Of a DNA stretch of 48,136 nucleotides, positions 14,756 to 32,988 are shown one piece after another. Both the position numbers and the translations under genes were made by a program. The notes beneath the pieces are model-generated. The model had not been told where the DNA came from. It did not search any database and saw nothing but the letters and a program-made list of their open reading frames with translations. Origin of the DNA: a virus; IMG/VR virus record IMGVR_UViG_3300033977_000008, positions 1-48,136 of that record; one strand, given 5' to 3'. The stretch's first letter is position 1. Each line of letters begins with the position of its first letter.

Positions 14756-17347
14756 ATGGCTCGCGCCAATGTTCTTGTCAATAACTTCAACGGCGGCGAA
14801 TTTTCAAGACTCATTGAGAGCCGAAGCGACCTGTCTAAGTATGCCTCGGGATGCCGCCGACTTGAAAACGCCATTCCGCTTGTTGAAGGCGGCGCGAAGA
14901 AGATGCCCGGAACAATCTTTGCGGGCATTGCAGGGAATGGCGGGCCACTAGGGACGGCGACAACAGGAAAGTCAAGGCTAGTTCCTTTCCAATTTTCAAC
15001 GCTTCAAACAGCAATCATTGAATTTTGCGCAGGATTCATCCGCATCTGGATGGACGGCGGCTTGATTGAAAGTGGTAACCCACTGACGCCCATAGTAGTA
15101 GCAACACCTTACGCCGAAGCCGACCTCTTTGACCTCGATGTATCAACCCAAAGTGCAGATGTTCTCTATATCTTTCATTCTAGTTACCCACCAGCTTCAC
15201 TTAATCGGATTTCAAACACGAATTGGACTTACACGCTTCTGTCGCTGTACGGCACAGAAGATGTGGTGAAAACTGGCTACAGCGCACTGGGTCAGTGCAT
15301 CACTAGTATCACTCAGGCAAATCCAGCGGTGGTGACTGTTGTGGGCACGGGAAGTAATGCGCCATTTGCAAACGGCGACCGAATTTACATCAACCTTTGT
15401 GCTGGCATGATGGAATTCAACCAAGGACAATTCATTGTCTCAAATATGAGCGCCACTGCTCCTTGGACATTTAACCTTTTGCCGCTTAATTCTAGCGGCG
15501 GAGGAAGTGTAGCTGCTTTGACGCCTGGGTTTCTGGATGGACCGTTTTCCTCTAATCCAGCCGGAATATATAATACAACTGGTGGAACGGGAACAGGACT
15601 TACAGTAGGTGTGGGAGTTCAGCATCGTCCCGATGGGACTTGGGTCATAACGAGCGTTTTCCCTATTAACGGCGGCACTGGTTATTACGTGGGAGATATA
15701 ATCCACTTCGTTGTTTTGAGTGAAACATTATCAGCTACGGTCAATGCTGTTATTGGGAGTAGTGCAATAGATTCTACGCATTTTCTTACCTACGAAGGCG
15801 GTGGTTTCGCAGTCAAGGTTCCGGCGCTTTTCAATAGTGCGGGTAACTACCCGGCTTGCGCTACGTTTCATCAAGAACGTTTCTGCATCGCGGGATCAAC
15901 GAACAATCCCACGCAAATGAATGGCAGCACTCAGGATGATTTTCCTGACTTCATCGCTGATCCCAATGAAGATGATTACGCGATTCAATTCACTCTGGTT
16001 AGCCAGCAGATTGATCAGATTCGGTGGATGATCGGGACTCCGAATGCGCTGCTGCTTGGGACGGCGAGCGGTGTGTGGGCTATGTTTAGTCCTTCGGGGA
16101 CATCGCTATCCCAGACAAATGTGATGGCGGCAAAGCAGACCAGTATGGGAGTTGGGGCAATCGCCCCGCAACTCGTAAACGACGCTATCATTTGGGTTAC
16201 GCGCTCGACCTACATTGTAAGATTGCTCATCTATAACTGGATCACAAACCAGTGGGAAGGCCCCGATCTTACGCGACTAAACCGTGAGATAACAGTTGGA
16301 CCTAGCGAGCCGCAATCGGGGATCGTGCAAACCGCCTTTCAGCGTGACCCGTATTTTATCTTCTGGGCAGTGCGTGCGGACGGTCAGCTTATCGGTCTGA
16401 CTTACGAGCGAGAGGATCAGGTATTTGCTTGGTTCAGAATCGTCACCGATGGGATTATCGAGTCGGTAGCTTGCATAAGCCAAGACGGGGCGGAAGACCA
16501 AGTATGGATTTCAGTGCAACGCACTGTGAACGGCGTGGCTCAGAGATACATCGAGTATTTCACTCCACAGGGACTTTTCAACGAATTATCAAACGGCTTC
16601 TTCGTTCACTGCGGTCTTCAGTGGCAAGGAGTCGGACCTTTCACGATTACGGGAATATCACAAGCCAATCCCTGCGTAGTGACGGCACCTGGACACACGT
16701 TGCAGAACGGGCAGAGCGTTAGAATCACCGGAGTCCAAGGCATGACTCAGGCGAATAACGATCCTGCTTCGGCCTGGATTGTAGCTGGAGTCAGCGGCAA
16801 CACATTCCAGTTGCAGAACGTAGATTCGACTGGATGGAATGCCTATACGTCTGGTGGCTCGGCAAGCCAAGTTACGAACACCGTTACGGGTCTTCAGTAC
16901 ATCCAAGGTCAAAGCGCGGTTGCGGTAGGAGACGGCGCGAAAATTTGGCAAGGTACGGTGCCCTCAAATGGGCAAGTGACCTTCGCATATTACGCTAATC
17001 TCGTGAGCATCGGGTTGACATTCCAGACGATCATTGAGCCGATGAATCCTACGCTTGGCAATCCTCAGCAAACTTCCAAAGGTAAGAAACAGAAAATCTC
17101 CCGCGTGACTTTCAGCCTTTGCGATTCTATTGGTGGTCAGTACGGAAACGACCAACAACATCTTCATTTGATGGCATATGGGCCTGGAGCCAAAGGATTG
17201 CCACCAGCTTTGTTCACAGGTAATATCACGCGGGATTTGGACGGAGATTGGCAGGACGAGGCCACGATTTCCATTGTTCATGGCGAGCCGTTTCCGTTTA
17301 CACTTAGAAGCGTCATACCTCGTGTGGATGTCGCGGAGATGGGATAA
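14756..17347 (+). CDS. Large tail nozzle / tail tubular protein B-like protein with two inserted beta-barrel domains
   Basis: 863 aa, after the adaptor and before the internal virion proteins. Two copies of I(T/S)..(T/S)QANP.VVT...G(D/Q)...I.......N.....V. Confidence 0.55.
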   Translation: MARANVLVNNFNGGEFSRLIESRSDLSKYASGCRRLENAIPLVEGGAKKMPGTIFAGIAGNGGPLGTATTGKSRLVPFQFSTLQTAIIEFCAGFIRIWMDGGLIESGNPLTPIVVATPYAEADLFDLDVSTQSADVLYIFHSSYPPASLNRISNTNWTYTLLSLYGTEDVVKTGYSALGQCITSITQANPAVVTVVGTGSNAPFANGDRIYINLCAGMMEFNQGQFIVSNMSATAPWTFNLLPLNSSGGGSVAALTPGFLDGPFSSNPAGIYNTTGGTGTGLTVGVGVQHRPDGTWVITSVFPINGGTGYYVGDIIHFVVLSETLSATVNAVIGSSAIDSTHFLTYEGGGFAVKVPALFNSAGNYPACATFHQERFCIAGSTNNPTQMNGSTQDDFPDFIADPNEDDYAIQFTLVSQQIDQIRWMIGTPNALLLGTASGVWAMFSPSGTSLSQTNVMAAKQTSMGVGAIAPQLVNDAIIWVTRSTYIVRLLIYNWITNQWEGPDLTRLNREITVGPSEPQSGIVQTAFQRDPYFIFWAVRADGQLIGLTYEREDQVFAWFRIVTDGIIESVACISQDGAEDQVWISVQRTVNGVAQRYIEYFTPQGLFNELSNGFFVHCGLQWQGVGPFTITGISQANPCVVTAPGHTLQNGQSVRITGVQGMTQANNDPASAWIVAGVSGNTFQLQNVDSTGWNAYTSGGSASQVTNTVTGLQYIQGQSAVAVGDGAKIWQGTVPSNGQVTFAYYANLVSIGLTFQTIIEPMNPTLGNPQQTSKGKKQKISRVTFSLCDSIGGQYGNDQQHLHLMAYGPGAKGLPPALFTGNITRDLDGDWQDEATISIVHGEPFPFTLRSVIPRVDVAEMG

Positions 17348-17796
17348 TGGGTGACCTGCTCACACTGAAAAATCTCCAGATGGGCTTTGCTGGCCTTGGC
17401 GCTCTCACCAGTGCGGTGTCGGGCTTCGGAGAGTATGAAGCTGGTCAGGAAAAGAAAGCCGCCTATGATTATAATGCCGCAGTCAGCCTCCAGCGAATGC
17501 AAGAAGAAATGCAGACTTCGGAGACGCAATATGCTGTTCTGACCGGCAGGCAGGCATCTCGTTATGCTGCCGCTGGCGTTGATATTGCTTCCGGTTCGCC
17601 GCTTTTGGTAATGGCGCACACCGCAGCGCAAGGTGCGAAGGAACAGGAGAGCGAATACCTAGCAGGCACGGAAGAAGCCGCGTTGCAGCGCTACTACGGT
17701 AAGGTGGCGGCTTTCAGCGGAACCGTGGGCGGTATCAGCACGTTCCTTAGTGGGCTGGCGAAATCAGGTAGCCAGATGGCTACTATTATGGCGTGA
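17347..17796 (+). CDS. Internal virion protein (small, gp14-like position)
   Basis: TAATG coupling to the nozzle gene. Hydrophobic Gly/Ala-rich ends. RQASRYAAAGVDIASGSPLLV is a motif typical of podovirus internal/ejection proteins. Confidence 0.5.
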   Translation: MGDLLTLKNLQMGFAGLGALTSAVSGFGEYEAGQEKKAAYDYNAAVSLQRMQEEMQTSETQYAVLTGRQASRYAAAGVDIASGSPLLVMAHTAAQGAKEQESEYLAGTEEAALQRYYGKVAAFSGTVGGISTFLSGLAKSGSQMATIMA

Positions 17797-19658
17797 GGGG
17801 GAGTCCAATCCCTGAAATTCCAGTAGTTACAGCTCCTCGTTTAGTTCCTCCACCGGAGATCAGTCCGCAGATTGCCGGGCAGCCTGGGGAGACGCTTGCC
17901 CGCCTCGGACGAGAATTTGGTACTGTAGCTGATTATGGATTTCAGGTAGCATCCCGGATAAAGGACGCACAAGATGCCGTTTTGATCCAGGATGCTGAAA
18001 ACCGAATAGTCGCGGATATTCAAAAAGCTCGCATGGAGTTAGCAAACTGGAGTGATTTCACCCAAGCCGATCAACTTAAAGAACAAACTGCGAAAACGCT
18101 AAGGGATAAATACTCGGCGCAATTCGCCAACCATCCTCACTTATGGCGGTATCTTGAACCTTACCTCGGGAGGGAATTGAATCAGTACAACTACGATGTT
18201 GACGTTAGGAGAGCAGGCCTAATCTCAGATTTCGGCACGGCTGGTCTTGTTGAAACACTGAGGAATGACTCCTTGCTAATATCCAACGCGAGATCGGAAG
18301 CTGAAAAGCGGAAATACGAGCAACATAGCCTAGGCCAGATACAAGTATTCCAGGATAAGGGAATCATAAATCCGCTCAAAGCGGAAGAGATGCGGCAGGC
18401 ATTTTTCAAGACGAACGAAGAGGCGATACTAACGAAACTTACTCGAAGCCCGAATCCTGACGATGTAGCGAGAGGAATATCTCTTCTTCAGGATTCAAAC
18501 AACTTCCCACATATCCCAACCAGCGAGCAAGCGAAGTATTTAACCGCCGCTGAAAAACACCTGGAAGTCGTAACTGAGATGGCTGGGAAAGCGCAACGCG
18601 ACAGGGCGGAGAGCACTGCAACTCAAGCGCTTCAAATGAAGTTCCCAGACGATTATGATACGCAACTCGAAATGCTCGAAGGTGTTGGGGCAACGACGCC
18701 AGAAGCTCAAGCACAATACATTGAATGGCTAAAGAGTGTTGGCCTTGCCGATCAGAATGGCGTTAAAGATATGGCAGCGATTAAGCAGACAAGAGAAGCT
18801 ATTGACGCCATGCAAGCAGATCGGAAGAAGCGCGAGACAGAAGAAAGTGATAAAGCCGAGAAGCAGATCACGGACGCCATGGCGACGCATGATTTTGTGA
18901 AAGCGCGACAACTGCTCAAGCAAAGTCTTCCCATGTTGGTGAAAGGGAAAGCCGAAGAACTTGATAAGGCGATAGTGGCGCGCGCGAAAAGGACAGATGA
19001 TGATATTTCCAATCACGAGGATGCGGCAGAATATCTGAAAATCATCAAGATGATGGCCGATGATCCAGATGCCGCAGAGAGAGAAATTATCCAAACCCCG
19101 CATTTGAAAACTACAACGCGAGAGAGTTTGGTAAAGCGCCTTGAGACAGCGCAGGATAAAATTTTGAAAAGTGGCCTTGCTATGGCAGACGGCTATCTCC
19201 GCGAGCAGATTTCAGCGACGAAAGACCCGCTTCAATTGCCAGGACCGTTGCATCTTGCAAAAGCGCGGGATGCGCAAGTAGCCCTTGGCGAGTGGATTGA
19301 ACAGGAAAATGCGCGAAGGGCTACGGGCAGACAGAAAGCGTTAACGTCTCAGGAGATATACGAGCACGCAAAGGAAATGGTGCCTGCGTACTATGTGACG
19401 ACAGCGCAGGAGATACAGTACGAAGCGGAAATGAAGAAGCGGGCTTTGCAAGCGCAGAAACCTTACAACTACACTCCTGAGCAACTCAAGCATTGGGCCG
19501 ATCACTACGGGATTACTGTTGATGAACTAAAACGTAGAATGAAGCAGCCTACCGATCAAAGAACCAGTGGCGCCTACACCGAAAAGGAACTTAAAGATAT
19601 GGCTGCGGAGTGGGATATAAGTGTTGAGCAAGTAAAAGACTATTTGGGGATTAAATAA
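17793..19658 (+). CDS. Internal virion/ejection protein, helical, with two C-terminal HeH/SAP-like motifs
   Basis: 621 aa, highly charged and helical. Overlapping start and stop with neighbours. C-terminal repeats YTPEQLKHWADHYGITVDELKRRM and YTEKELKDMAAEWDISVEQVKDYL. Confidence 0.55.
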   Translation: MRGSPIPEIPVVTAPRLVPPPEISPQIAGQPGETLARLGREFGTVADYGFQVASRIKDAQDAVLIQDAENRIVADIQKARMELANWSDFTQADQLKEQTAKTLRDKYSAQFANHPHLWRYLEPYLGRELNQYNYDVDVRRAGLISDFGTAGLVETLRNDSLLISNARSEAEKRKYEQHSLGQIQVFQDKGIINPLKAEEMRQAFFKTNEEAILTKLTRSPNPDDVARGISLLQDSNNFPHIPTSEQAKYLTAAEKHLEVVTEMAGKAQRDRAESTATQALQMKFPDDYDTQLEMLEGVGATTPEAQAQYIEWLKSVGLADQNGVKDMAAIKQTREAIDAMQADRKKRETEESDKAEKQITDAMATHDFVKARQLLKQSLPMLVKGKAEELDKAIVARAKRTDDDISNHEDAAEYLKIIKMMADDPDAAEREIIQTPHLKTTTRESLVKRLETAQDKILKSGLAMADGYLREQISATKDPLQLPGPLHLAKARDAQVALGEWIEQENARRATGRQKALTSQEIYEHAKEMVPAYYVTTAQEIQYEAEMKKRALQAQKPYNYTPEQLKHWADHYGITVDELKRRMKQPTDQRTSGAYTEKELKDMAAEWDISVEQVKDYLGIK

Positions 19659-22600
19659 TGCCTATTGATCCTCAGCACGGTCCTGATCCTTTGGAGGGCT
19701 CAGCGGTTCAGTACGGACCGGACCCGTTTGAACAAATGCATCCTGAGCCTCCGCCTTTCCCGATTGACGATCATGTTCACGAGCAAATTAAAAAATTACC
19801 TCCTCAACAAGAAGTGAAAGCGAGAAGCGGATGGAATTCTGTTCTTTACCAACTGAGTCAGCCATATCTCGCAAGTGGCTATAGCGCCGCATCAGCCTTG
19901 AATCGTGGTATGGCGCACTTCGCGGATACTCTGGACAATGCGAGAAAATGGCTACAGGAAAGTATGGGCCATGTGACTTGGGGTCCCAAGACTGAGCCAC
20001 TTGTCCCAGAAGACTTCTTTGAAAAACTTGCCAAGGTTTATGAATTAAATGCGGATTATTGGAAGCAGCGTGCTGACCAAGTAGGTCCCTCTTTTCTTGA
20101 AGAATTGGTTGGTGAAGCGATAGGTGGCGCGGTGCCCGGGATAACGGAATTCACTGTAGATACAGCTTCGTACTTCACTATCCCAGGTATGGCTGGGTGG
20201 GAAAAAGCACAAAAGCACGGGGAATCGGGAATAGACCCGGTGATTACAGGATTAGTTGAAGCGGCTAAGGTGGGAACGCTGCAATATCTATTTCGGACGA
20301 TGGCACCGTTCAAAAGATATCTGCAAGCATCTGCGATGGGTTCTTTTTTTGGTGCTCAGGCAGTGGCGGAAGCTCCAAGTGGTCAAAGGCTCAGAGGAGG
20401 CGCTAAAGGTCTGGGTACCGGAATGCTTTTGGCCGGAATCAGCCAGCCTGGTGAAATTGGCGTGAGGGACATCTATCCTGAACTTGGCAGTGGAATTCCT
20501 AGAATATCTCAAGACTTGCTCGTCCCACAATTGCCTATGGCGGAAGGATTAAAACCTGCCATTAAGACAGCCGACCGGGTGACCACAGGGGAAGTGGGAG
20601 AAACACATCCTGATATTGGCCCTCCGACACGCGACGAAGAGCGTGGCTTCGTGACTCCGCAAGGCAAGTTCCTAACGCGCAAAGGTGCGGAGGAGTGGCT
20701 GGCTCAAAACAATCCTGAAGTTCACGAAGAATGGAAGAAAAGAGCTGGAGAGGGAGCGGAATTTCACTCCGAAGATTATAACCTAGCGCGTGAGACCGTG
20801 CAGGCTTCACGTCGGCCTTTGCCTTTAGGTGCAGCGTCTCGGCTTCCAATAGATAATCCTCCGGTATTTCGGCCTCATGTGGAGCCGACTGGAATTTGGG
20901 GCAGCATCGGCAGGATATTTCATTCGATGTATAAAGCCACGACAATAGACATCGTACCGGGTCTTGCTGATGTAGGAGTATCCAATAACGCAGTCCAACA
21001 TGCTCACGCAAGAGAGGCGGCACCAAGGATTGTAGACGACCTTCTATCGCGAGTCTTCCCTGAAGATTACAAAAAGCCCCAAGTCATGGCGAACTTTATC
21101 GACCTACTCAACAAGGATAATATTTTAGGGGGGCTTGACTCTTTTCTGTTGCGGGCATCTGAGGCAAGAGTCGAAGGGGATACTGCCACCGCCGAAAAAT
21201 GGGATACACTCGCAGAAGCAGTTAAACAAGCGCACGACATTTCCGCTTATGATACCGAAGTTCGCAAAGCAATGCGAAATGACAAGTTCATGCAGACCGT
21301 CCAGCGATGGCAAGATAATGTGTCACCTAAACTCGATCAACTTTATAACGAGATGAAGCAAGTAGACCCTTTTACGCAACGGGATTCTCGCGGGCGTTAT
21401 CTGGACAGCCGCATAAATCTTTTAACTGAAGAAAAGGCGACAAGGTGGGCGGAAGCAATGCTAGACCCTGACAAACCGACGCCCGAGCCTTCGGCGTCAT
21501 CTTATCGCAATCCTAACGTAAAGCGCGATCCGTATGATGTGATGGCAACCTTCACTGGGAAATATTCAACTGACGCGAAGGCTGTGCTTTCTGCCGTTGT
21601 GGGACATAGATGGAATGAAGTAACCAAGATACGTTTCTACAATGATCTTGTGGATAACGGTATAGGAATAGTGCCGGAGGCAAATGAAGCTCCTCCCGAA
21701 GGGTACACTCGCATGGCGTTTAGAATGCCTCATACTGCGAACACTGGTCGGACCAATATTATCGAACAGCCATTGTTCGTACCGCAAAATCTCGTTCGTG
21801 AGATACGCAGTGTGCTTCGTACAGACATGCCGTTGAAGGAAAATCTTGTAGGAAGGGTTTTGACCGGACTTCAATTGGCTCAATTGGCGGACTTGACGAC
21901 TCACACGAAAAATATCCAATCGGTTATTACACGTGCGCAGGGAGCAGGCGATGTCTGGACGGATGTCATCAGGAAAATTCCCGGCTTTGGTTCTGCCGAT
22001 ACAATATGGCGCATGGTCAAGACGACTCGTGAAGTTTTCCACGATACGCCAGAGATAAGAGCAGAAATCGAGCAAATGGCTCGCCGTGGTTTGGTGAGAC
22101 CGGCTTTCCCTGCTATAGGGATACAGAAAATAACGCGCGGTCAGCAAATCATCCACGAGGCGGACACTGCGGCGCGGATCATTATGAATCGGTTCTTTGA
22201 CAATTTGGCAGAACGGAAACTCGTTCTTGATACAGAAGAAAACCGGCGCAACTTTGTCAATCAGGTCGGCGAATATAATACGCGACTTCAAGGACCGATT
22301 ATGAGAGCAGCTAAGCAATCAGGGCTTTCACCTTTCATTGTTGCTGGCCGGAACTTTAATAGACAGGGAAGATGGGCGGTTACAGGTAATCCTGGCATTG
22401 AAGCTGCTAGTACGAATGCTGCCGTTCAAATGCGCGTCTTGAACCTTCTTGGAACGGCTGCTCTTTTCACTCTGCCGATGTTCCTCAATTATCTCACCAG
22501 CGGTAAGATGACAGGACGAGCGGGAACACCTATCGGGGCGTGGGATTTAGGTCTAGAACCTGATCCAAAGACAGGAAAACATAAAGTTATTGATCTTCTC

Positions 22601-23170
22601 AACTGGACTGGAGCGAGGCGTGGGATGCGTTCTATCGGCCTTGATGCTTTGATCCAAGGGTTGATGAACGGCGACCACATGAACGACATAGCGGGAAACG
22701 CTTTGCAGGATGCTGGCAATACCATTATCCATCCCTGGAATGGACCAGCCATCGCATTTGCTGAAAAGACTCTAACTGGCAGACAGCTTGATCTTCGTGG
22801 AATTATGGAAGTGGAAAAATTACCCGAAGGTGGCGGGCTTCAATATGTAGAGAACTTTCGGGCTGCACTGGAAAGTCAGAATCCGTTTGTGTATTCGATT
22901 GTTCGTCCTGCCTTTCAGGAACTAGGCTTGGATCAGAAACCGAAGCCTAGTTATCCAGAAGATGTGATTACGTCATTATTAAAATCTCCTGAAGCAGCGG
23001 TCGGCGCGCGAGATATAACACCGCCACCGACAGAAGGGGAACGGCTGAAACGTGAGGCAGAAATTAAGCGCGCAAGAATGCGGGAAAAACTCGAATACAA
23101 AATAGGACTTGACCGCAAGGCTCAAAAAAAGCGGTTTACGATTCTAAGACGAAGGGCAGAAGAAGACTGA
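19658..23170 (+). CDS. Large internal virion / DNA-ejection protein (gp16-like position)
   Basis: 1170 aa, the largest non-fibre ORF and third in the internal-protein series. TAATG coupling upstream and ATGA coupling downstream. No lytic transglycosylase motif seen. Confidence 0.55.
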   Translation: MPIDPQHGPDPLEGSAVQYGPDPFEQMHPEPPPFPIDDHVHEQIKKLPPQQEVKARSGWNSVLYQLSQPYLASGYSAASALNRGMAHFADTLDNARKWLQESMGHVTWGPKTEPLVPEDFFEKLAKVYELNADYWKQRADQVGPSFLEELVGEAIGGAVPGITEFTVDTASYFTIPGMAGWEKAQKHGESGIDPVITGLVEAAKVGTLQYLFRTMAPFKRYLQASAMGSFFGAQAVAEAPSGQRLRGGAKGLGTGMLLAGISQPGEIGVRDIYPELGSGIPRISQDLLVPQLPMAEGLKPAIKTADRVTTGEVGETHPDIGPPTRDEERGFVTPQGKFLTRKGAEEWLAQNNPEVHEEWKKRAGEGAEFHSEDYNLARETVQASRRPLPLGAASRLPIDNPPVFRPHVEPTGIWGSIGRIFHSMYKATTIDIVPGLADVGVSNNAVQHAHAREAAPRIVDDLLSRVFPEDYKKPQVMANFIDLLNKDNILGGLDSFLLRASEARVEGDTATAEKWDTLAEAVKQAHDISAYDTEVRKAMRNDKFMQTVQRWQDNVSPKLDQLYNEMKQVDPFTQRDSRGRYLDSRINLLTEEKATRWAEAMLDPDKPTPEPSASSYRNPNVKRDPYDVMATFTGKYSTDAKAVLSAVVGHRWNEVTKIRFYNDLVDNGIGIVPEANEAPPEGYTRMAFRMPHTANTGRTNIIEQPLFVPQNLVREIRSVLRTDMPLKENLVGRVLTGLQLAQLADLTTHTKNIQSVITRAQGAGDVWTDVIRKIPGFGSADTIWRMVKTTREVFHDTPEIRAEIEQMARRGLVRPAFPAIGIQKITRGQQIIHEADTAARIIMNRFFDNLAERKLVLDTEENRRNFVNQVGEYNTRLQGPIMRAAKQSGLSPFIVAGRNFNRQGRWAVTGNPGIEAASTNAAVQMRVLNLLGTAALFTLPMFLNYLTSGKMTGRAGTPIGAWDLGLEPDPKTGKHKVIDLLNWTGARRGMRSIGLDALIQGLMNGDHMNDIAGNALQDAGNTIIHPWNGPAIAFAEKTLTGRQLDLRGIMEVEKLPEGGGLQYVENFRAALESQNPFVYSIVRPAFQELGLDQKPKPSYPEDVITSLLKSPEAAVGARDITPPPTEGERLKREAEIKRARMREKLEYKIGLDRKAQKKRFTILRRRAEED
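23125..23131 (+). other. In-frame A AAA AAG heptamer (candidate -1 frameshift or A7 slippage site)
   Basis: Zero-frame codons are CAA AAA AAG. The -1 frame is open from 23131 through ATG 23170 of the ATP-grasp gene. Confidence 0.35.
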
Positions 23171-24423
23171 TGGCAGGCTACAAAAGCAAAAGCGTGTGTG
23201 TTTCCGATAATGGACTGTTCAGCGAACTGGCAAGAACGCTTTCGCGTTCATTTGGGCAAGTTTGGTACACATCGCCTTGGGTGTCGGCGTTTCCTTTAAG
23301 CGAGCATCTTGAAGTTGCGGAAGGCATGGTGGAAATTGACAGGATTGACGACATCCATGAAATCATAAACGACTGCGACCTGTTTGTTTTCCCTGATATT
23401 TACCAAGCTCCGATTCAGATATACCTCGCATCCATTGGCAAGCGTGTGTGGGGAGCACGCGAAGGCGATGAACTGGAAATCTACCGCAAGGATTCAAGGG
23501 CTCACTGCCATGAACTTGGCATTCCGCTACCAGAATATGAAGTGATTAAGGGTATGAACGCCGTGCGGAAGTACATTAAGAACCACGATGGAGAAAAGCT
23601 GTGGGTGAAAGGCAACAAGCCCAGAGGAGATTTTGAGACTTTCTGTGTGGAGGGCTACGACCTTGGTAAGAATCAATTAGATGATATTGAAACACGGCTC
23701 GGACCTAAAGCGGATCAGATGACTTACATTGTCGAGCAAAACCTGAAGGCCAGCATTGACCTTGCCATCGACACGCATTGTATCGACGGACAATATCCAG
23801 ATACAACAGTGCTTGGTACGGAAGAAAAGGGAGAGTGCTATGTTGGGGAAGTTGCTCCGTGGGCGGCAATGCCTAATGCACTGCGAGAGATTTACAGCAA
23901 ACTTTCACGCACTTTGAAACAATACGAGTACCGAAATTTTCTGTCACTTGAATCTCGGGCTTTCGCCAAACGCATTTACCTTGGTGATCCGTGTTGCCGT
24001 GCTGGATCACCACCACTCGAATTGCAATTGAATTGGATTACGAATCTAGCCGATATTTTGTGGGAAGGCGCTGAAGGGCATATGGTCAATCCAGTTTATG
24101 ACGGCAGATTCGGCGTCGAGCTTATCGTGCATTCGGATTGGGCCAATAAGCATCCACTGCTAGTGGAGTTCCCTGAGAAGTACCGTGACAAAATTAAGTT
24201 TCGCTATAATTCGGAGTTTGAGGGCAACACTTGGATTATGCCCCAGGGCGTAGGTCCAAGAATTGCGGCAATCGTGAGTCATGGAAACTCAATCGACGCT
24301 TGCATCGAAGAGTGCAAAGAGATAAGCTCGCAATTGAAAGGAACCTTAGTGGAATCATTCACGAGGAGCTTCCCCATCGTCATGGAAAAGATCGAAACGC
24401 TAAAGACGTGGGGACACTGGTAG
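23170..24423 (+). CDS. ATP-grasp fold ligase (PurD/RimK-like architecture)
   Basis: Rossmann-like N-terminus, then ...EKLWVKGNKPRGDFETFCVEG..., IVEQNL...DLAIDTHCIDGQY and LSLESRAF..RIYLGDPCCRAGSPPLE, which resembles the E..N.R.GdPe motif of ATP-grasp enzymes. Confidence 0.6.
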   Translation: MAGYKSKSVCVSDNGLFSELARTLSRSFGQVWYTSPWVSAFPLSEHLEVAEGMVEIDRIDDIHEIINDCDLFVFPDIYQAPIQIYLASIGKRVWGAREGDELEIYRKDSRAHCHELGIPLPEYEVIKGMNAVRKYIKNHDGEKLWVKGNKPRGDFETFCVEGYDLGKNQLDDIETRLGPKADQMTYIVEQNLKASIDLAIDTHCIDGQYPDTTVLGTEEKGECYVGEVAPWAAMPNALREIYSKLSRTLKQYEYRNFLSLESRAFAKRIYLGDPCCRAGSPPLELQLNWITNLADILWEGAEGHMVNPVYDGRFGVELIVHSDWANKHPLLVEFPEKYRDKIKFRYNSEFEGNTWIMPQGVGPRIAAIVSHGNSIDACIEECKEISSQLKGTLVESFTRSFPIVMEKIETLKTWGHW

Positions 24424-24432
24424 GGAGGATTT

Positions 24433-24987
24433 ATGAAACTCAAAGGATTGCTTCTGATTCTGGCGCTTGCCATTAGCGCTTCTGCTTTCGGAACCGGAAC
24501 TTGTACGGTTACAGATGTCACAAGCACTCAAAACGCCAACAGTCGCGTGCCTGATTCCTGGACCGTAGATGTGATAGTTAAATGTACGGCTGATGGGAGC
24601 GGAAGCATTCCGTCTGCCACTAGCATCCCGATGAGCGGATCAACTAGTTCTTCCGGTCTAATCAATACCTACAATGTGTTTGGGTATTATTTATATCAAG
24701 TTGGGAGAACGCCAGGGAACGTCACAGGCTCAAATACTAGCTGCTCCGCGACATGCCCAACTGCCAACTACAGCACAACCATTACAGACGTCCAAGGATT
24801 CGCTCTTGATCTTGGTCTACTATCCTCAAATGGCAGTGCAACAGCAGCGCAGATGAATGTGATAGCAAATTCCACTACGAATTATCCTGTAGTAAGGAGC
24901 GGCAATTTGGTGCTTGGTGTTACTGGCAACACGAGTTCCAATCCTAATGCAGTAATTACTTTCGACCTGATCTTCAAATCTCAATAG
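24433..24987 (+). CDS. Secreted-type S/T-rich protein (signal peptide), fibre-associated
   Basis: SD GGGAGGA. N-terminus [20 protein letters not shown] is a classical Sec signal with an ASA cleavage motif. Many N-x-S/T sequons. Confidence 0.55.
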
Positions 24988-24997
24988 TGAGACGAAC

Positions 24998-27900: not shown

Positions 27901-28882
27901 CTCGCCTACGGCTGGCGCTGGAGGTACGGCTGGTGCGGGAACATTTACTTGTGGCGGGGCGGGTGGAACAGGTGCAAGTTCAAACAATGCTGGAGCGGCT
28001 GGCGGTTCTTGTACGATTACGGCAGGCGCGGGAGGGAATAGTGCGGGAACTGCCAATAATGCCAGCGGGGGGAACATTGTACTGACACCAGGAGCGGCTG
28101 GCACAGGGGGCTCAGGCACAGCGGGCTCAGCCGGAGTCGTTCAAGTTACTACGCTTGGTGCGGGCGTAGCGCATCTAAACGCCTCGGGCAATCTAACGAG
28201 TTCATCTGTAATTTCATCCGACGTGAATAGCACTGTGATGATCGACGGAGCAAACACCACTACGACTGCCGGTAAGATTCCCTTCTCGACTACTACAGCG
28301 GGCAGTTATACTCCTGGTGATTTCATAGACTCGAAAGAATTTCCCGCGGCGACCTGCAACAGTACGACCGGCGGCAGCGGTTGGAATCTACCAGCATCAA
28401 ACGGATTTACGGTTGGGACCTGCCCGGAAATATCGGGTGGAAACCACAACGTGGGCTATGTATCTGCCACTCAATCCACATCCGCCGAGACACAGATTTT
28501 TCACATTCCCACGAACTGGGACTCGACGGCGGCGATGTACGCAAGCCTCAGCTTCGACCAGGGCAACTACACAACAAGTGGTTCCTCGATCATCTTGAGC
28601 ATCGCTGTGGCCTGCATCCCATCGTCGGGCGCCACCAGCAATCCGTCCTACCAGAGCGCGCAGGCATTCCCGACCGCCACGACAACCACGACGGCCTACA
28701 CGTACTTTTCGGCGAGCGCTGAGTACCTTACGCTGAACTCCACCAGCCTCACGAACTGCTACGCCGGGGGAGACGCGTTCTTCAAGATCAGCCGTGGATC
28801 GAGCGACACGGCAGCAGTGACCCCGAACATCTTCACCATGACGCTTGGCGTCCCACTCCTAAATACGGGGCAGGCACAATGA
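24998..28882 (+). CDS. Tail fibre protein (1294 aa) with an N-terminal Sec-type signal peptide and a Gly-rich solenoid region
   Basis: Tail-fibre motifs [21 protein letters not shown] and [14 protein letters not shown]-rich. GGxGG repeats over about 27700..28130. N-terminus [20 protein letters not shown]. Confidence 0.7.
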
Positions 28883-30471
28883 GACGGGCATTCCTAGTTC
28901 TGGTTCTGATACTTTGGCCTTCTACTAAAGAAGCACAGCAGATTTATCCCGCGGGCACGGCCTTCCAGGAGAACTTCGGCAATAATGGGGTTAACCCACA
29001 GCCTTGCTGGTCAGGCGGAACGGGTTCCGCAGCTCAGTGTATTCAACAGTGGTATGTAAGTTCGGGAAGTGGTCAAAGTATTGTCACGGCACCGAGCGGG
29101 TGGAGCGGCAACGCCCTAGAACTTGCTTCAGCAACTACTGCGAACAAGCTCATAACCGCCGGAACCATGCCGCTAGTGCCGCTGAATAGTGGATTTACTT
29201 TCACGATGACTGCGAATTTATCAGCCTACCCAAGTTCCTACACAGAGTTGGCTAGATTTCGTTCTTACTGGACATCGGGTAACATCGAGGGGCAGATCCA
29301 GGCATATACAGGCGGGTTTGAATTCCCTAACGGTACTACCTGTACCGCGTCCGCGAATGCGGGCCATACGCTTAAGGAAACTAGCAACGGAACTACCATG
29401 TACGGCTACATTGATGGTACGCAATGCGGTAGTTCCTGGGCCGATCCTGGATATCCTATTGGGTCTATTGAGGTTGGAGGGGGCAACGGTTACAACACCT
29501 TTATTCAAACCATCACACTGAATGGCACAACAGTAACCGGTCAGTGGCCTCCGTCGTTCTATGTCAACTTCAACGGGCAGTACGGAAATTCCGTGACTGC
29601 CTCCACCTTGCAATCCGGCACACCCTGCAACTTCAACGCGCAAAACGCAAACGCGACGGGCGATTGGGCGGTTAGCACATTGACGGGTATCTCATATAGC
29701 TACGTGCAAGGTGGTCAACCTTTCCCCAGTAATCTCAGCGCCTGCGGCGGGTCATACACCGGCAACGTAAACGTCGCCCTCGACATGAACGTCACGACCA
29801 CATCGGGAGCGGAAGGCTACTGGGGAGAGACATTCTACACTTCATACCCCAACTTGAGCTGCGGGGTTTACATACGAATAAATCCCACTGGGACACTCGG
29901 CGCGTCTGGGAATATAGATACGCTACTATTGGGCGCGAGTAGCGACGAGTATAATTCGCAGTATTACACAGGTAGCGGCACAAATTTCGTCGTCCATTTT
30001 GAGAACCAGCAGGGTGGAGGCAGCGCTCCGGCAACCAGTACCATTACGACGAACATATATTACTGGGAGACGTTTGATGTAACTGGGTCGGGTGGAACCA
30101 ACTATCTGTGGCTTTTCAACATCAACTCTAGCGGCCAAGTCACATCTTTAGTAAGTCAACTTACGGAGGCAGGCACCCATGAAGCCTTCGGCGGTGGAAC
30201 ATTTCTATTCAGGATCGGCAAGTTGGGTTCAGGAACGATCTCCAACGCCGCCGATGTGATCTACTCGAACGTGATCGTTTCGGCTGCTATGACCGCTGGC
30301 GGACCATTGATGCCTCCGGCAGGCGCGGCCTGCCCAGTGATAATTGGCCGACTATGTCAGCAAGAAAGCGACTTTGCAGAGGGCCGAGGGCTGCTGCCCA
30401 TCTTCCGCGTTGGCCTCTTAGACCCGCCGGTCAGGAGGCCACACACGATCACAGTGAATTGGCCGCAATGA
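28879..30471 (+). CDS. Fibre/receptor-binding-module protein with a signal peptide
   Basis: ATGA coupling to the fibre gene. N-terminus [21 protein letters not shown]. Beta-rich 530-aa body with a jelly-roll/lectin-like feel only. Confidence 0.45.
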
Positions 30472-30768: not shown

Positions 30769-32988
30769 ATGAAAATGTCAAAAGCGACTGCTGCAATAAT
30801 CCTCTTCCTAATCTCAGGCAGTACCCTGTTTGGCACAGTCACGAGTACGAATAACAGCGTGACGTATACCTGCTCCAATTCGACTGGGCCATTCTCTTTT
30901 AGCTTCCCAGCCTACGATGCGGGCAGTATCCAAGTCATTGAAACGGTTGGTACTACGTCCACAACGATTCCTTCCAGTCAGTACACGATTACTATAGTCA
31001 ACCATTCCTTCGCAAACGGTGGGAGCATTTCACTTTCGACTGCTTGTGCTACCGGTAATTTGCTGACAATTCAGCGCGTGACTGAGGAAACGCAACTCAG
31101 CAGTTTTACTGAATATATGCCCGCGCTATACAAAACATTTGAGTACGGCCTTGACAAGCTCACAGAGGAAATCCAAGACCTTCCTAGCAGCGTAATTCCT
31201 ACTCTTCTTTCTACTTCTCTTGCCCTCAAGCCCGCCGTGGCGGATGCGGTGCAATACGTTTCAAAAAATGGGAGCGATTCAAACGATGGCTTCTCCGAGG
31301 GGAGCGCCGTGGCCGATATTGGGACTGCCTATGGTAATCTGCCGTCGTGCACGGTTGCAAACGACCTCAACCCTTTTACAAACCCTCCGTCAACGTACAA
31401 TTCCTACACGTTCTCTCATTGTGGCAAGATTTATGTTGCTGAGGGAACGTATACGGTTTCTTCCCAAATAACTATCTCGTCTCCGTTCGTCACTGTTGAG
31501 GGCCAAGGGCAGGGTGCGGTTATAAACTGGATCGGTACAGCCGGAACCGCAATTAAGTGGACCTCCAGCCCATTCGCGCATGAATTTATAAATGCCGGTG
31601 GTCTATTCAACGTGCGGATTGATGGGTACAACGGGTCAGCCGGGACGTGGGGGCTCAACACTTATAACCTCTCCAGCTTCCATGCAGCGCGGGTTACTAT
31701 CGCCAACTTTAGCGGCTCCGGTTCAGGCTGTTGGAATAACACGATGGATTCTGGGTGGAATGAGAAATACGACGTGGAAATTACCACCGACAACTGCACA
31801 ACTCATTGGCAAGTTCAGAGGCTTTCGACTGGGAGCGGAAGTACTTACGGATACGGTAGATTCGAGGTTAAAAGCATCATTTACGCAGGCCAAACAGGCT
31901 TCGTGCTCGATGGAGGCACGCAAGGTAGCCTCTCGTTTGATAACTCCTTTTTTCATTATGTCGCCAACGAGGTTTCAAACACAGCGAACGACACCGTGAT
32001 GTTGCTTCGCAACGGAGCAAGCATGATTGATAACGTGTGCCAGATACATATGGAGGCTCCTTACGGGATCGGCACTGGAAATGAGATCAACATATCTAGT
32101 AACAGCAGCTTCGCTTGTGCCGGCGAACTCGACCAAGCCTCCCCAAGTTCAAACCTCCTATCAGGCGGCTTTAATGTCTTTAATCCGTTGCAGGCCTGGT
32201 TGCAATTCCGCGGCGACCGCCAAGTATCACTGCTTGACAGTGACTTTGAACTCAGCGGCTCAGGCACGTACCCGGTGGGCCTTCCCCCGGTGGGTTGGAC
32301 ACCAAGCAATTCACCTACATTGGCGTATGAAACGAGCACGGCTTACAACGGCAAAACTCGTTCCCTCAAGATCACAGGCTCAACGCAATACGAAGGGGTT
32401 TTCAGCCAGAACTTTCCGGTTGCCGCTGGCGATACTTATTCAATCCAATGCGCTGCCAAATCGGATGGAACCGGGACAGCCGATTGCAACGTTCAGTTCA
32501 AAAATGAGAGTGGAAGTAACTTAGCTTCAGCAAGCGCCACAACTATGTCCACTAGTTGGACAGCCTTGAGCGCCTCGGCAACAGCTCCGGCAAACGCAAC
32601 CTATGGAACCGTTGTCCTTCAGAACGATACATCGGCTGGTGCCGGTGCTACATGGTTCGACGACATTGTGGTGCGCAAGGTTGACTTTTCTGTGCTTGTA
32701 GCAAGTGGAAGACAGGCTAGCCTTTCTGGTACGGGAGCCTGTGCGACGATTACAACTCAAAAGGGTGGATCGTGGGCGGGATCATTCGTTTGTACCGGAA
32801 CAACCGGAACGAGCACGATAACGGTTACGGCGGGTCCAACCGCGCCAAACGGTTGGGTACTCACGGCCTACGACATGAATGATGGCGTGCATGGCGCGCA
32901 AACCGCCTACACGACGACTACGGCCTCCGCTAGCTTTTCCAGCGTGACGCAAAACGCCGTTTTGACCTTCACGCTAACGGCTTTCTAA
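30769..32988 (+). CDS. Tailspike/depolymerase-like protein: signal peptide, beta-helix-like core, C-terminal CBM-like jelly roll
   Basis: SD AAGGAG. N-terminus MKMSKATAAIILFLISGSTLFG. VQYVSKNGSDSNDG... resembles pectate-lyase-fold spikes. The C-terminal DSDFE...WT...Y.G..SLKI...W.DD.V pattern is CBM4/9-like. Confidence 0.5.
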   Translation: MKMSKATAAIILFLISGSTLFGTVTSTNNSVTYTCSNSTGPFSFSFPAYDAGSIQVIETVGTTSTTIPSSQYTITIVNHSFANGGSISLSTACATGNLLTIQRVTEETQLSSFTEYMPALYKTFEYGLDKLTEEIQDLPSSVIPTLLSTSLALKPAVADAVQYVSKNGSDSNDGFSEGSAVADIGTAYGNLPSCTVANDLNPFTNPPSTYNSYTFSHCGKIYVAEGTYTVSSQITISSPFVTVEGQGQGAVINWIGTAGTAIKWTSSPFAHEFINAGGLFNVRIDGYNGSAGTWGLNTYNLSSFHAARVTIANFSGSGSGCWNNTMDSGWNEKYDVEITTDNCTTHWQVQRLSTGSGSTYGYGRFEVKSIIYAGQTGFVLDGGTQGSLSFDNSFFHYVANEVSNTANDTVMLLRNGASMIDNVCQIHMEAPYGIGTGNEINISSNSSFACAGELDQASPSSNLLSGGFNVFNPLQAWLQFRGDRQVSLLDSDFELSGSGTYPVGLPPVGWTPSNSPTLAYETSTAYNGKTRSLKITGSTQYEGVFSQNFPVAAGDTYSIQCAAKSDGTGTADCNVQFKNESGSNLASASATTMSTSWTALSASATAPANATYGTVVLQNDTSAGAGATWFDDIVVRKVDFSVLVASGRQASLSGTGACATITTQKGGSWAGSFVCTGTTGTSTITVTAGPTAPNGWVLTAYDMNDGVHGAQTAYTTTTASASFSSVTQNAVLTFTLTAF

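What the first reader, a model, noticed from the sequence alone, without database searches (positions are those of the whole stretch)
23170..24423. ATP-grasp ligase embedded between ejection proteins and tail fibres
A 417-aa protein with ATP-grasp hallmarks is translationally coupled (ATGA) to the last internal virion protein and precedes the fibre block. The hallmarks are a central K-containing strand (LWVKGNK...FCVEG), IVEQN...IDGQY and LSLESR...GDPCCRAGSPPLE. Metabolic ATP-grasp enzymes are not expected in a virion structural operon. The placement suggests a virion-associated or virion-modifying ligase. It could add amino acids or peptides to a fibre or ejection protein, or act in the host after injection. 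This role is inference only.
Basis: partly seen in the sequence, partly recalled or inferred. Interest (0 to 1): 0.65.

Follow-up and report, generated by a model that had tools for sequence, protein, structure and literature searches.

The report
Phage PurD-like ligase among virion genes
The gene encodes what looks like a working ATP-powered enzyme that joins an acid to an amine; it belongs to a very large, unstudied, almost entirely phage family that always sits among head, tail and DNA-packaging genes and often has an amine-making decarboxylase next to it.

Summary
The ORF at 23170-24423 (417 aa) is real. The ATP-grasp call is correct: the AlphaFold model (pLDDT 92.6) matches PurD (GAR synthetase) over its full length (Foldseek E 7e-21, TM 0.75), and a family profile hits PurD by sequence. 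It is not PurD or PurK: it scores 12-19 bits against cut-offs of 288-327.

The residues aligned to PurD's ATP, Mg and acyl-phosphate residues are invariant in 73 homologues down to 25% identity. An active ligase is therefore likely.

The family is large (1351 clusters at 50% identity). It has no Pfam or PHROG model and no cultured phage member. It always lies in morphogenesis modules: after the large ejection protein (as here), between terminase and portal, after portal, or between predicted injected "polyvalent" proteins.

In 24 of 68 dereplicated loci an AdoMetDC-like pyruvoyl decarboxylase sits within three genes, directly upstream in 21. Other partners are a small unknown metal-site protein, a GNAT, and HAD-phosphatase or acylphosphatase fusions. 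These point to amide formation with a small decarboxylated amine rather than proven protein ligation. This phage has none of these partners.

Whether the enzyme is packaged into virions or modifies virion proteins is untested.

The parts
23170..24423 (+). Gene for the 417-aa PurD-like ATP-grasp ligase (47.5 kDa, pI 5.2).
   Evidence: ORF and translation. AF2 model pLDDT 92.6, pTM 0.91. Foldseek top 14 PDB hits are all PurD, best 2yw2_A with E 6.8e-21, TMq 0.75 and full length. Family profile against PDB: PurD E 1.3e-4. Mass and pI.
23476..23487 (+). Codons E103 to R106 (ELEIYR). E103 aligns with PurD Glu100 (Mg). R106 aligns with PurD Lys103/105 (ATP phosphate).
   Evidence: HMMER and hhalign alignments agree. 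PurD residue roles come from PMC8880213. Both residues are invariant in 73/73 homologues.
23608..23637 (+). Codons K147 to E156 (KGNKPRGDFE). K147 is the central ATP-binding lysine. This segment replaces PurD's glycine-rich loop and carries invariant R152, D154 (72/73) and E156.
   Evidence: K147 aligns with PurD K143 (A. aeolicus) and K145 (E. coli). Conservation.
23734..23736 (+). Codon E189 (IVEQN), the hinge glutamate next to the adenine pocket.
   Evidence: Aligned within one to four residues of the EEFLEGEE hinge of PurD, which contains Glu185 (the text alignment puts E189 opposite Gly190). Present in 72/73 homologues.
23821..23829 (+). Codons E218 to K220 (GTEEKG), proposed equivalents of PurD Asp212 and Lys214 (substrate amino group; ATP/Mg).
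   Evidence: Both invariant in 73/73. The correspondence is my six-residue manual shift of the HMMER alignment, so it is an inference.
23950..24021 (+). Codons E261 to E284 (ESRAFAKRIYLGDPCCRAGSPPLE), the Mg/acyl-phosphate motif. D273 aligns with PurD Glu283, C275 with Asn285 and R277 with Arg287.
   Evidence: Alignment. E261, D273 and R277 are invariant in 73/73. C275 is Cys in 64/73 and otherwise Met, Ala or Thr. In homologue P0122 an intein is inserted exactly between P274 and C275.
19658..23170 (+). Upstream 1170-aa ORF at the position of T7 gp16 (IVP-D). Its stop codon overlaps the ligase start by one base.
   Evidence: No Pfam, PHROG or PDB match. The assignment is by gene order after tubular protein B and a gp14-like protein. 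Homologues occupy the same position in the clade.
14756..17796 (+). Tail tubular protein B (14756-17347) and gp14-like internal virion protein (17347-17796). These anchor the T7-like gene order.
   Evidence: phrog_376 E 2.4e-147 and phrog_418 E 5.8e-9.
24433..24987 (+). Downstream 184-aa ORF of unknown function. It neighbours the ligase in 13 related loci but moves position in others.
   Evidence: No Pfam, PHROG or NCBIfam hit.
30769..32988 (+). 739-aa protein whose N-terminal ~140 residues match a tail-protein family. In most relatives a protein with this N-terminus directly follows the ligase.
   Evidence: phrog_1640 E 3.7e-11. tblastn synteny.

Best explanation
The gene encodes a catalytically active ATP-grasp carboxylate-amine ligase. 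It belongs to a large, uncharacterised family found almost entirely in phages and prophages, built on the four-domain PurD scaffold.

Proposed mechanism:
1. MgATP is clamped between the central and C-terminal domains by R106, K147, E189, K220, E261 and D273.
2. A carboxylate is phosphorylated to an acyl-phosphate, stabilised by R277.
3. A primary amine attacks it to give an amide plus ADP and Pi.

In many relatives the amine is most likely the product of the AdoMetDC-like pyruvoyl decarboxylase encoded immediately upstream. That product would be a decarboxylated amino acid of the polyamine, agmatine or ethanolamine type, and in some lineages it is handled as a phosphate ester that a fused HAD phosphatase later removes. 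The window phage has lost or never had these partners, so its enzyme must use an amine and an acid from the host pool.

The enzyme is made late, co-translated with the ejection and tail proteins, so its product is needed during or just after particle assembly.

Shown: the fold, the conserved catalytic set, the partners and the placement. Inferred: activity, the nature of the amine, the acid partner and the timing.
For: - Fold: AF2 pLDDT 92.6. Foldseek: the top 14 PDB hits are all PurD, E down to 6.8e-21, TM 0.75, over the full length, followed by biotin carboxylase and PurT. A profile of 42 homologues hits PurD 2yw2 at E 1.3e-4, in register, plus six weaker PurD hits.
- Catalytic set: E103, R106, K147, R152, E156, D201, E218, K220, E261, D273, R277 and N292 are invariant in 73 distinct homologues, including the Aquificae viruses at 24-26% identity. 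These align with PurD residues listed as ATP, Mg or glycine ligands in PMC8880213.
- Strong constraint: the ligase keeps 38-44% identity in loci where no other window structural protein is detectable apart from tubular protein B at 25-29% in some. Inteins with LAGLIDADG domains sit in its conserved motifs.
- Partner genes: the AdoMetDC-like protein matches Pfam PF02675 at 28.2 bits against a cut-off of 25, and many family members carry a precomputed PF02675 hit. Its ES-dyad Ser and the Cys are invariant. It lies within three genes in 24 of 68 dereplicated loci and directly upstream in 21.
- Other partners: a GNAT is upstream in two loci. N-terminal HAD phosphatase fusions occur in at least five cluster representatives, and an acylphosphatase fusion in one.
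- Precedent for the logic: in the C. jejuni capsule pathway, Cj1436 (a decarboxylase) makes ethanolamine phosphate, Cj1438C forms the amide with ATP, and Cj1435 removes the phosphate (PMC12409886).
- Known phage decarboxylases: phage AdoMetDC homologues have been shown to be AdoMetDC, arginine or ornithine decarboxylases (PMC9992855).
- Late operon: one-base overlap upstream, 9-nt gap downstream, no internal signals.
Against: - No activity, substrate or product has been measured for any family member.
- The window phage has no decarboxylase, no second partner protein and no HAD domain anywhere in its 48 kb. The partner-based inference is therefore transferred from relatives at 38-58% identity.
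- About half of the dereplicated loci show neither partner.
- The Asn that ligates Mg in PurD is Cys here (Met, Ala or Thr in 9 of 73), so metal binding differs from the canonical site.
- The decarboxylase family profile finds no solved AdoMetDC structure by sequence, and one of the two members tested is just under the Pfam cut-off (23.4 bits).
- Metabolic genes rarely keep a fixed place inside head and tail operons across such divergence. A purely metabolic role does not explain this.
Confidence: 0.5

Rival explanations
1. Packaged effector. The ligase (with the decarboxylase where present) is loaded into the capsid with the ejection proteins and injected with the DNA. It then works in the newly infected cytoplasm, where ATP is available, making or destroying a small amine or acid metabolite or amidating a host protein. 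This would favour takeover or blunt a defence, in the manner of T4 Alt or the enzymatic domains carried by internal virion proteins.
For: - Every context found is next to proteins that are packaged or predicted to be packaged. These are after the IVP-D-position protein (window clade and distant T7-like loci), after portal or between terminase and portal, and, in L035/L093, between a 792-803-aa InPase/minor-head protein and a 2718-aa protein with methylase, helicase and LPD38 domains.
[quoted passage not shown] Late-operon placement of T4 Alt-family genes is linked to packaging (PMC5512222).
- Internal virion proteins of podoviruses host domains destined for the cytoplasm (PMC4819975).
- An ATP-dependent enzyme can only work in a cytoplasm.
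Against: - This is association only. No fusion of the ligase to an internal virion, MuF or portal domain was seen among 83 loci or the 150 best cluster representatives.
- There are no virion proteomics, because no cultured phage has the gene.
- A 47.5-kDa four-domain enzyme would need unfolding to pass through the tail channel.
Confidence: 0.22
2. Virion-modifying ligase. The enzyme attaches an amino acid or a polyamine-type amine to a Glu or Asp side chain, or to the C-terminus, of an ejection, portal or fibre protein during assembly. Where present, the decarboxylase supplies the amine.
For: - It is co-translated with virion proteins and fixed in morphogenesis modules.
- ATP-grasp enzymes that modify proteins exist (RimK, TTL family, LysX; from general knowledge).
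- The small partner protein c2 gives weak, non-significant fold matches to zincin peptidase cores, including the tubulin carboxypeptidase MATCAP (best E 0.24).
Against: - The nearest folds are small-molecule ligases. No RimK, TTL or LysX-type chain is among the 50 PDB matches listed.
- The adjacent virion protein differs between architectures (IVP-D-like, portal, terminase, polyvalent protein), so no constant candidate substrate is encoded nearby.
- The C-termini of the upstream large proteins are basic, (K/R)(K/R)xF(S/T)IRG-like, not acidic tails.
- HAD phosphatase and acylphosphatase fusions fit small phosphorylated intermediates better.
Confidence: 0.13
3. Ordinary purine-pathway auxiliary gene: a divergent PurD (or PurK, as one Aquificae virus record annotates it) that boosts nucleotide supply.
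For: PurD is the best fold and profile match. The homologue in GenBank record BK013347 is annotated 'phosphoribosylaminoimidazole carboxylase'.
Against: - NCBIfam purD and purK models score 12-19 bits against cut-offs of 288-327.
- Pfam GARS_A is not significant in any of 42 members (best E 0.043).
- Identity to PurD is 11-15%.
- The glycine-rich loop and the Mg-binding Asn are replaced.
- No other purine gene is nearby. The partners are a decarboxylase, a GNAT and a HAD phosphatase.
Confidence: 0.03
4. Dead enzyme reused as a structural or assembly protein of the tail or head.
For: Position in the structural operon. Cys replaces the canonical Mg-binding Asn.
Against: - Every other nucleotide, Mg and acyl-phosphate position is invariant over 73 homologues down to 25% identity. 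A scaffold role would not require this.
- The family is fused to catalytic partners (HAD, acylphosphatase) and adjoins a decarboxylase.
Confidence: 0.05

Closest known systems
PurD, glycinamide ribonucleotide synthetase (ATP-grasp; PDB 2yw2, 1gso)
   Same: - Same four-domain fold over the whole length (TM 0.75).
- In-register profile match.
- Equivalent Glu/Lys(Arg)/Lys/Glu(Asp)/Arg set for MgATP and the acyl-phosphate.
- Same reaction class: carboxylate plus amine gives an amide.
   Different: - 11-15% identity.
- Fails the purD model by about 270 bits.
- The glycine-rich loop is replaced by NKPRGDFE, with invariant Arg and Glu and a near-invariant Asp (72 of 73).
- Mg-binding Asn is replaced by Cys, and the GDPE motif by GSPP.
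- No purine-pathway context.
- Encoded in phage morphogenesis modules.
Decarboxylase + ATP-dependent amide ligase + phosphatase pathways, e.g. C. jejuni capsule glucuronamide (Cj1436, Cj1438C, Cj1435). Methanofuran MfnA/MfnD is a second example, from memory.
   Same: Same enzyme logic as the gene sets seen here: a decarboxylase makes the amine, an ATP-dependent ligase forms the amide, and a phosphatase removes a phosphate handle (PMC12409886; partners).
   Different: - No sequence relationship was tested or claimed.
- The decarboxylase here is pyruvoyl-type (AdoMetDC-like). Cj1436 being PLP-dependent is from memory; the paper text read does not state its cofactor.
- Substrates are unknown.
- The window phage carries only the ligase.
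Phage AdoMetDC/SpeD homologues that act as AdoMetDC, arginine or ornithine decarboxylases (PMC9992855, PMC10407285)
   Same: The partner protein is a ~120-aa class-1b-like AdoMetDC homologue encoded by phages.
   Different: - Those papers never use the term 'ATP-grasp' (occurrence counts; no 'grasp', 'ligase' or 'capsid' in PMC9992855).
- The family here has no tblastn match in 50,697 phage records.
- Its substrate is unknown.
LUZ24/phiRIO-1-type phage operon for gamma-glutamyl amide or unusual peptide bonds (ATP-grasp, amidoligase, amidotransferase)
   Same: Phage-encoded ATP-grasp amide-bond enzymes of unknown product in podoviruses (PMC3890496, PMC4819975).
   Different: - Those lie in the early or replication strand.
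- They are about 290 aa and are partnered with amidoligase and glutamine amidotransferase.
- No PHROG family matches the window protein.
Virion-packaged enzymes: T4 Alt, N4 virion RNA polymerase inside an IVP-D homologue, phage polyvalent proteins
   Same: Encoded in late or structural operons next to ejection proteins. This is the precedent that such placement accompanies packaging and injection (PMC5512222, PMC4819975).
   Different: Those are proven or predicted from fusions to packaging domains. No such fusion was found for this ligase.

Membership tests
ATP-grasp superfamily | Three-part ATP-grasp fold with nucleotide clamped between the central and C-terminal domains | tested here: met
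   AF2 model pLDDT 92.6. 533 PDB matches at E<=1e-3, and all 50 listed are ATP-grasp enzymes.
ATP-grasp superfamily | Conserved basic residues for ATP phosphates, and acidic residues plus Arg for Mg and the acyl-phosphate | tested here: met
   R106, K147, K220, E261, D273 and R277 are invariant in 73/73 and aligned to PurD ligands. Exception: the Mg-binding Asn position is Cys.
ATP-grasp superfamily | ATP-dependent ligation through an acyl-phosphate intermediate | not testable with these tools
   Needs an enzyme assay.
PurD (GAR synthetase) family | Score above the curated family threshold (TIGR00877; Pfam GARS_N/A/C) | tested here: not met
   purD scores 11-19 bits against a cut-off of 288. 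Pfam GARS_A best E 0.043, in 5 of 42 members. No hit for the window protein.
PurD (GAR synthetase) family | Purine-biosynthesis gene context or function | tested here: not met
   Neighbours are virion, packaging, decarboxylase, GNAT and HAD genes. No purine-pathway gene was found among the neighbours that could be annotated; most neighbours have no family match.
PurK (N5-CAIR synthetase), as annotated in BK013347 | Score above the curated threshold | tested here: not met
   12-18 bits against cut-offs of 318-327.
Protein-modifying ATP-grasp ligases (RimK, TTL, LysX type) | Closest structural or sequence relationship to those clades; a protein substrate | tested here: inconclusive
   None appears among the 50 PDB matches listed. 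TTL-like viral proteins match only at TM <=0.32. The substrate is not testable here.
Virion (internal or ejection) proteins of T7-like podoviruses | Encoded in the structural operon next to internal virion proteins | tested here: met
Virion (internal or ejection) proteins of T7-like podoviruses | Physically present in purified particles | not testable with these tools
   No cultured phage carries the gene.
AdoMetDC-like pyruvoyl enzymes (partner protein c1, absent from the window) | Pfam PF02675 above threshold, conserved Glu-Ser self-cleavage dyad and active-site Cys | tested here: met
   28.2 bits against a cut-off of 25 for one member and 23.4 for another. Many family members carry a precomputed PF02675 hit. 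Ser and Cys are invariant. Self-processing itself is not testable here.

The most novel reading that the evidence does not exclude
A two-enzyme module (pyruvoyl decarboxylase plus PurD-like ligase; ligase alone in this phage) is a widespread but unrecognised piece of phage particle biology. One reading is that it is loaded into capsids and injected to make or consume a polyamine-type amide in the first moments of infection. The other is that it makes, at the packaging step, a cationic amide that goes into the capsid with the DNA or onto virion proteins. Either reading would be a new class of virion-linked metabolism, present in over a thousand phage lineages including Bradyrhizobium prophages.
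Probability: 0.3. Interest if true: 0.85.

Novelty: new variant of a known kind. Interest (0 to 1): 0.62.

Why it matters
The fold and reaction class are known. What is new is the family and where it sits.
- The family has no model in Pfam, PHROGs or NCBIfam and no studied member, yet it comprises about 1350 clusters at 50% identity.
- It is among the best-conserved genes of these phages and carries inteins in its catalytic motifs.
- It is tied to head, tail and packaging modules in four different genome layouts.
- Its recurrent pairing with an AdoMetDC-like decarboxylase links it to phage polyamine metabolism, which has so far been described without any ligase step.

If the product or target were found, it would explain a conserved late function of many soil and freshwater podoviruses. 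It could also reveal a new virion-associated small molecule or modification. Intact copies in a Bradyrhizobium isolate genome make the question testable.

Tried and rejected
- Single-sequence searches of the window protein gave nothing usable: Pfam (only Hydrolase_6, E 0.18), PHROGs (none), PDB phmmer (none), NCBIfam (far below cut-offs).
- The BFVD viral structure library gave only weak ATP-grasp matches, TM <=0.48.
- hhalign of the family profile against a single E. coli PurD sequence aligned only residues 84-149 (probability 2%). It served only to confirm register.
- The first scan of species genomes found no relative. A second scan with other patterns found nine loci.
- The decarboxylase partner c1 had no tblastn hit in phage records and no solved-structure hit by sequence or profile.
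- The partner c2 had no Pfam or NCBIfam hit and no PDB sequence hit. Its very confident model (pLDDT 97) has no significant fold match, best E 0.24. The zincin-like resemblance is only a lead.
- Looking up contigs for the HAD-fused and acylphosphatase-fused forms gave only short contigs.
- The search for c1 or c2 anywhere in the window found none at E<=10.
- I looked for acidic C-terminal tails on the upstream large proteins as candidate ligase substrates. The tails are basic.
- Promoter and terminator scans and base composition around the gene show nothing beyond chance.
- The 1170-aa, 1294-aa and 739-aa neighbours have no solved-structure relatives.
- Literature searches for an ATP-grasp plus pyruvoyl or AdoMetDC pairing in phages found no description.
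Full report
**1. The observation**

The ORF 23170..24423 (+) exists, starts with ATG and encodes 417 residues. Its start shares one base with the TGA stop of the upstream 1170-aa ORF. The junction reads TGATG, not ATGA. Several relatives do have the ATGA form. The next ORF starts 9 nt after the stop.

Promoter-like and terminator-like matches in 14000-33500 do not clearly exceed the shuffled expectation (promoters 16 vs 17.4 +/- 4.2; terminators 26 vs 19.1 +/- 4.3). GC content (0.47-0.49) matches that of the neighbouring genes. The gene is therefore an integral part of the late operon.

The window has identical first and last 127 bases. The matching contig is 48,150 bp. The window is therefore essentially a complete phage genome. 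Its gene order is:
- terminase 3347-5080;
- portal 6266-8143;
- protease/scaffold-like 9329-10123;
- capsid 10144-11193;
- tubular protein A 12286-13227;
- tubular protein B 14756-17347;
- gp14-like 17347-17796;
- 621-aa and 1170-aa ORFs;
- the ligase;
- 184-aa, 1294-aa, 530-aa, 82-aa and 739-aa ORFs;
- Erf and an exonuclease.

Calling the 1170-aa protein the "last internal virion protein" and the following genes "fibres" rests on T7-like order, plus a tail-family hit for the N-terminus of the 739-aa protein. The large proteins themselves match no family or solved structure.

**2. What the protein is**

Single-sequence searches are empty. A profile of 42 homologues hits PurD of Aquifex aeolicus (2yw2) at E 1.3e-4 over residues 85-329, in register. 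Six further weak PurD hits align at the same positions.

The AlphaFold model built on that alignment is confident (pLDDT 92.6, pTM 0.91). In the PDB its 14 best Foldseek matches are all PurD, with E down to 6.8e-21, TM 0.75 and full-length alignment. Biotin carboxylases and PurT follow. The ATP-grasp call is therefore correct, and the scaffold is specifically PurD-like.

It is not a PurD or PurK. The NCBIfam purD and purK models give 12-19 bits against cut-offs of 288-327. Pfam GARS_A is not significant. Identity to PurD is 11-15%.

**3. Is it an enzyme?**

I aligned 73 distinct homologues from fetched loci, including two Aquificae viruses at 24-26% identity. Invariant in all 73 are E103, R106, K147, R152, E156, D201, E218, K220, E261, D273, R277, P281 and N292.

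The table maps these to PurD using the HMMER alignment to 2yw2, the hhalign register check against E. coli PurD and the residue roles listed for A. aeolicus PurD in PMC8880213.

| Window residue | PurD equivalent | Role in PurD |
|---|---|---|
| E103 | Glu100 | Mg |
| R106 | Lys103 | ATP |
| K147 | Lys143 | ATP |
| E189 | hinge near Glu185 | adenine pocket |
| D273 | Glu283 | Mg/acyl-phosphate motif |
| R277 | Arg287 | acyl-phosphate |

E218 and K220 probably correspond to Asp212 and Lys214. That mapping is my manual six-residue shift of the alignment and is an inference.

Two differences from PurD stand out:
- The Mg-ligating Asn285 position is Cys275 (64 of 73; otherwise Met, Ala or Thr).
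- PurD's glycine-rich loop is replaced by NKPRGDFE, carrying invariant R152 and E156 and a near-invariant D154 (72 of 73).

The pattern fits an active ligase with its own substrate pocket. It does not fit a decayed scaffold.

**4. How big and where**

One search returned 382 homologues, nearly all about 417 aa and labelled hypothetical or unnamed (one carries a stray JGI 'HicB family nuclease' label), many on 36-50-kb contigs. An exhaustive profile search of 1.84 billion cluster representatives found 1351 clusters at E<=1e-3, of which 823 are at E<=1e-30.

Among 50,697 phage records only two uncultivated Aquificae virus genomes carry it. One is annotated "phosphoribosylaminoimidazole carboxylase". 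The paper describing them does not discuss it. PHROGs has no family for it.

IMG/VR holds 182 loci. Species genomes give nine loci. These include Bradyrhizobium sp. YR681, the B. oligotrophicum S58 chromosome (ligase and terminase both split there, so a decayed prophage) and several soil MAG bins. An intact copy also lies in a Bradyrhizobium assembly prophage.

**5. Gene neighbourhood**

In the window's clade (at least 50% identity) the order is fixed: tubular B, gp14-like, ~600 aa, 1000-1500 aa, ligase, then a protein with the 739-aa N-terminus and/or the 184-aa protein.

In loci where the ligase is 38-44% identical, no other window structural protein is detectable by tblastn, apart from tubular protein B at 25-29% in some.

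Four layouts recur:
- (A) T7-like: tubular B, internal proteins, ligase, fibre. This occurs in close and distant clades.
- (B) Terminase, ligase, portal. This is the P22-portal type and includes the Bradyrhizobium prophages.
- (C) Terminase, portal, ligase, scaffold, capsid. In the Aquificae viruses: portal, two small genes, ligase, terminase.
- (D) Ligase between a 792-803-aa InPase/minor-head-type protein and a 2718-aa protein with methylase, helicase and LPD38 domains.

Of 68 loci dereplicated at 90% identity, 42 have a recognisable packaging or tail neighbour. This is a lower bound, because my profiles are limited.

**6. Partner genes and fusions**

- c1: A ~120-aa protein lies immediately upstream of the ligase in many loci. 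It carries the motif PITESF..D.W....GAYL.ICSC. It passes the Pfam AdoMet_dc threshold (28.2 bits against 25; a second member scores 23.4). Its family (418 proteins) largely carries PF02675 and the JGI name "S-adenosylmethionine/arginine decarboxylase-like enzyme". The Ser of the self-cleavage dyad and the Cys are invariant. It lies within three genes of the ligase in 24 of 68 dereplicated loci and directly upstream in 21.
- c2: A second ~120-aa family has invariant H47, E51, H96 and E103. It occurs in 12 of the 68, either upstream of c1 or, in the window's own clade, directly upstream of the ligase. It has no Pfam, NCBIfam or PDB relative. Its confident model (pLDDT 97) has no significant fold match. 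The best matches, at E 0.24-0.5, are zincin peptidase cores.
- GNAT: Two loci have a GNAT acetyltransferase upstream instead.
- Fusions: Among cluster representatives, at least five carry an N-terminal HAD-type phosphatase (DxDGT motif; one passes Pfam HAD_2). One carries an acylphosphatase domain (52 bits).
- Inteins: Eleven forms of 758-802 aa with two matched stretches suggest insertions. The two I read are inteins with LAGLIDADG domains, one inserted exactly between P274 and C275.

The window contains neither c1 nor c2 in any frame.

**7. Interpretation**

The partners are enzymes that act on small molecules. A pyruvoyl decarboxylase makes a primary amine from an amino acid. Phage AdoMetDC homologues have been shown to be AdoMetDC, arginine or ornithine decarboxylases (PMC9992855). 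An ATP-grasp ligase can then join that amine to a carboxylate. A HAD phosphatase suggests that in some lineages a substrate carries a phosphate that is later removed.

Exactly this logic operates in the C. jejuni capsule pathway: decarboxylase Cj1436, ATP-dependent amidation by Cj1438C, phosphatase Cj1435 (PMC12409886). I therefore favour an acid-amine ligation with a small decarboxylated amine. In this phage both substrates would have to come from the host.

A plain metabolic role does not explain the fixed residence among head, tail and packaging genes across very different phages. Literature precedent links such placement to packaging and injection, as for T4 Alt, polyvalent proteins and enzymatic domains inside internal virion proteins (PMC5512222, PMC4819975). 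Layout D puts the pair between two predicted injected proteins.

Against protein modification:
- there is no constant neighbouring substrate;
- the upstream proteins have basic rather than acidic C-termini;
- the nearest folds are small-molecule ligases.

**8. Comparison with known systems and novelty**

The fold and reaction class are known. Membership of PurD and PurK was tested and failed. The LUZ24/phiRIO-1 ATP-grasp operon is a different, early-region system.

I found no paper describing an ATP-grasp paired with an AdoMetDC-like or pyruvoyl enzyme in phages, nor this family.

I rate it a new variant of a known kind: an uncharacterised, very large, almost entirely phage ligase family with a conserved late-module address and a decarboxylase partner. 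Interest is moderate to high. The finding is surprising in its placement and scale, and it is testable in Bradyrhizobium prophages. Its product, however, is unknown.

Noticed in passing
window 1-127 and 48010-48136: The first and last 127 bases are identical. This is most simply an assembler overlap marking a complete circular or terminally redundant genome of about 48.0 kb.
   Followed up: partly
homologues P0121, P0122 (and probably P0149, P0161, P0177, P0184, P0188, P0223, P0236, P0254, P0264): Eleven ligase homologues of 758-802 aa match the profile in two stretches, suggesting a ~360-aa insertion. The two I read, P0121 and P0122, are inteins with LAGLIDADG domains. One is inserted exactly between P274 and C275 of the catalytic motif (C275 is the +1 Cys). 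The other is near residues 70-74.
   Followed up: partly
homologues P0167, P0171, P0175, P0202, P0209, P0163: These carry N-terminal fusions of the ligase to a small HAD-type phosphatase (five cluster representatives) or to an acylphosphatase domain (one). Their contigs were too short to show context.
   Followed up: partly
loci L018, L020, L025, L026, L030, L036, L041, L046 etc., directly upstream of the ligase or of c1: A ~120-aa protein family (c2) found almost only on short or phage-sized contigs has invariant His/Glu/His/Glu and a very confident predicted fold (pLDDT 97). It has no significant match in the PDB and no Pfam model.
   Followed up: yes
window 23120-23167 and the C-termini of upstream large ORFs in L003, L005, L008, L010, L011, L019, L021, L023: Most of the large proteins upstream of the ligase (16 of 20 in the window's clade) end in a conserved basic motif, (K/R)(K/R)xF(S/T)IR(G). 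In the window it reads KKRFTILRRRAEED. Its function is unknown.
   Followed up: no
window 17793-23170 versus L008: The closest relative (IMG/VR contig, ligase 82% identical) shares 92-97% identity in the 184-aa, 1294-aa and 530-aa proteins and 86-95% in tubular B and gp14. Over the short stretches that align at all, it shares only 46-51% in the 621-aa and 1170-aa proteins. Mosaic exchange or fast evolution of the ejection proteins would explain this.
   Followed up: no
L001 (BK013347) 10023-11213: The Aquificae virus homologue is annotated 'phosphoribosylaminoimidazole carboxylase'. It scores only 15-18 bits against PurK models with cut-offs of 318-326, so the name is probably an over-reach from shared fold.
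   Followed up: yes
L098 (Bradyrhizobium oligotrophicum S58 chromosome, 5727796-5745150): A prophage with the terminase, ligase, portal layout has both the ligase and the terminase split over two frames and no decarboxylase. It is apparently a decaying prophage.
   Followed up: partly
window 35778-36911, 38084-39088, 40709-41536, 45285-45806: These ORFs are an Erf-like annealing protein, an exonuclease, a protein with a sigma-70 region 4 match and an HNH endonuclease. Most other ORFs outside the structural block that were scanned have no family match.
   Followed up: no
L035 11781-19934 and L093 12193-20349: A 2718-aa polyvalent protein (methyltransferase, AAA_34/helicase, LPD38) lies two genes downstream of the decarboxylase-ligase pair (a 171-173-aa reverse-strand ORF lies between). 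An InPase/minor-head-type 792-803-aa protein lies one or two genes upstream of the pair.
   Followed up: partly
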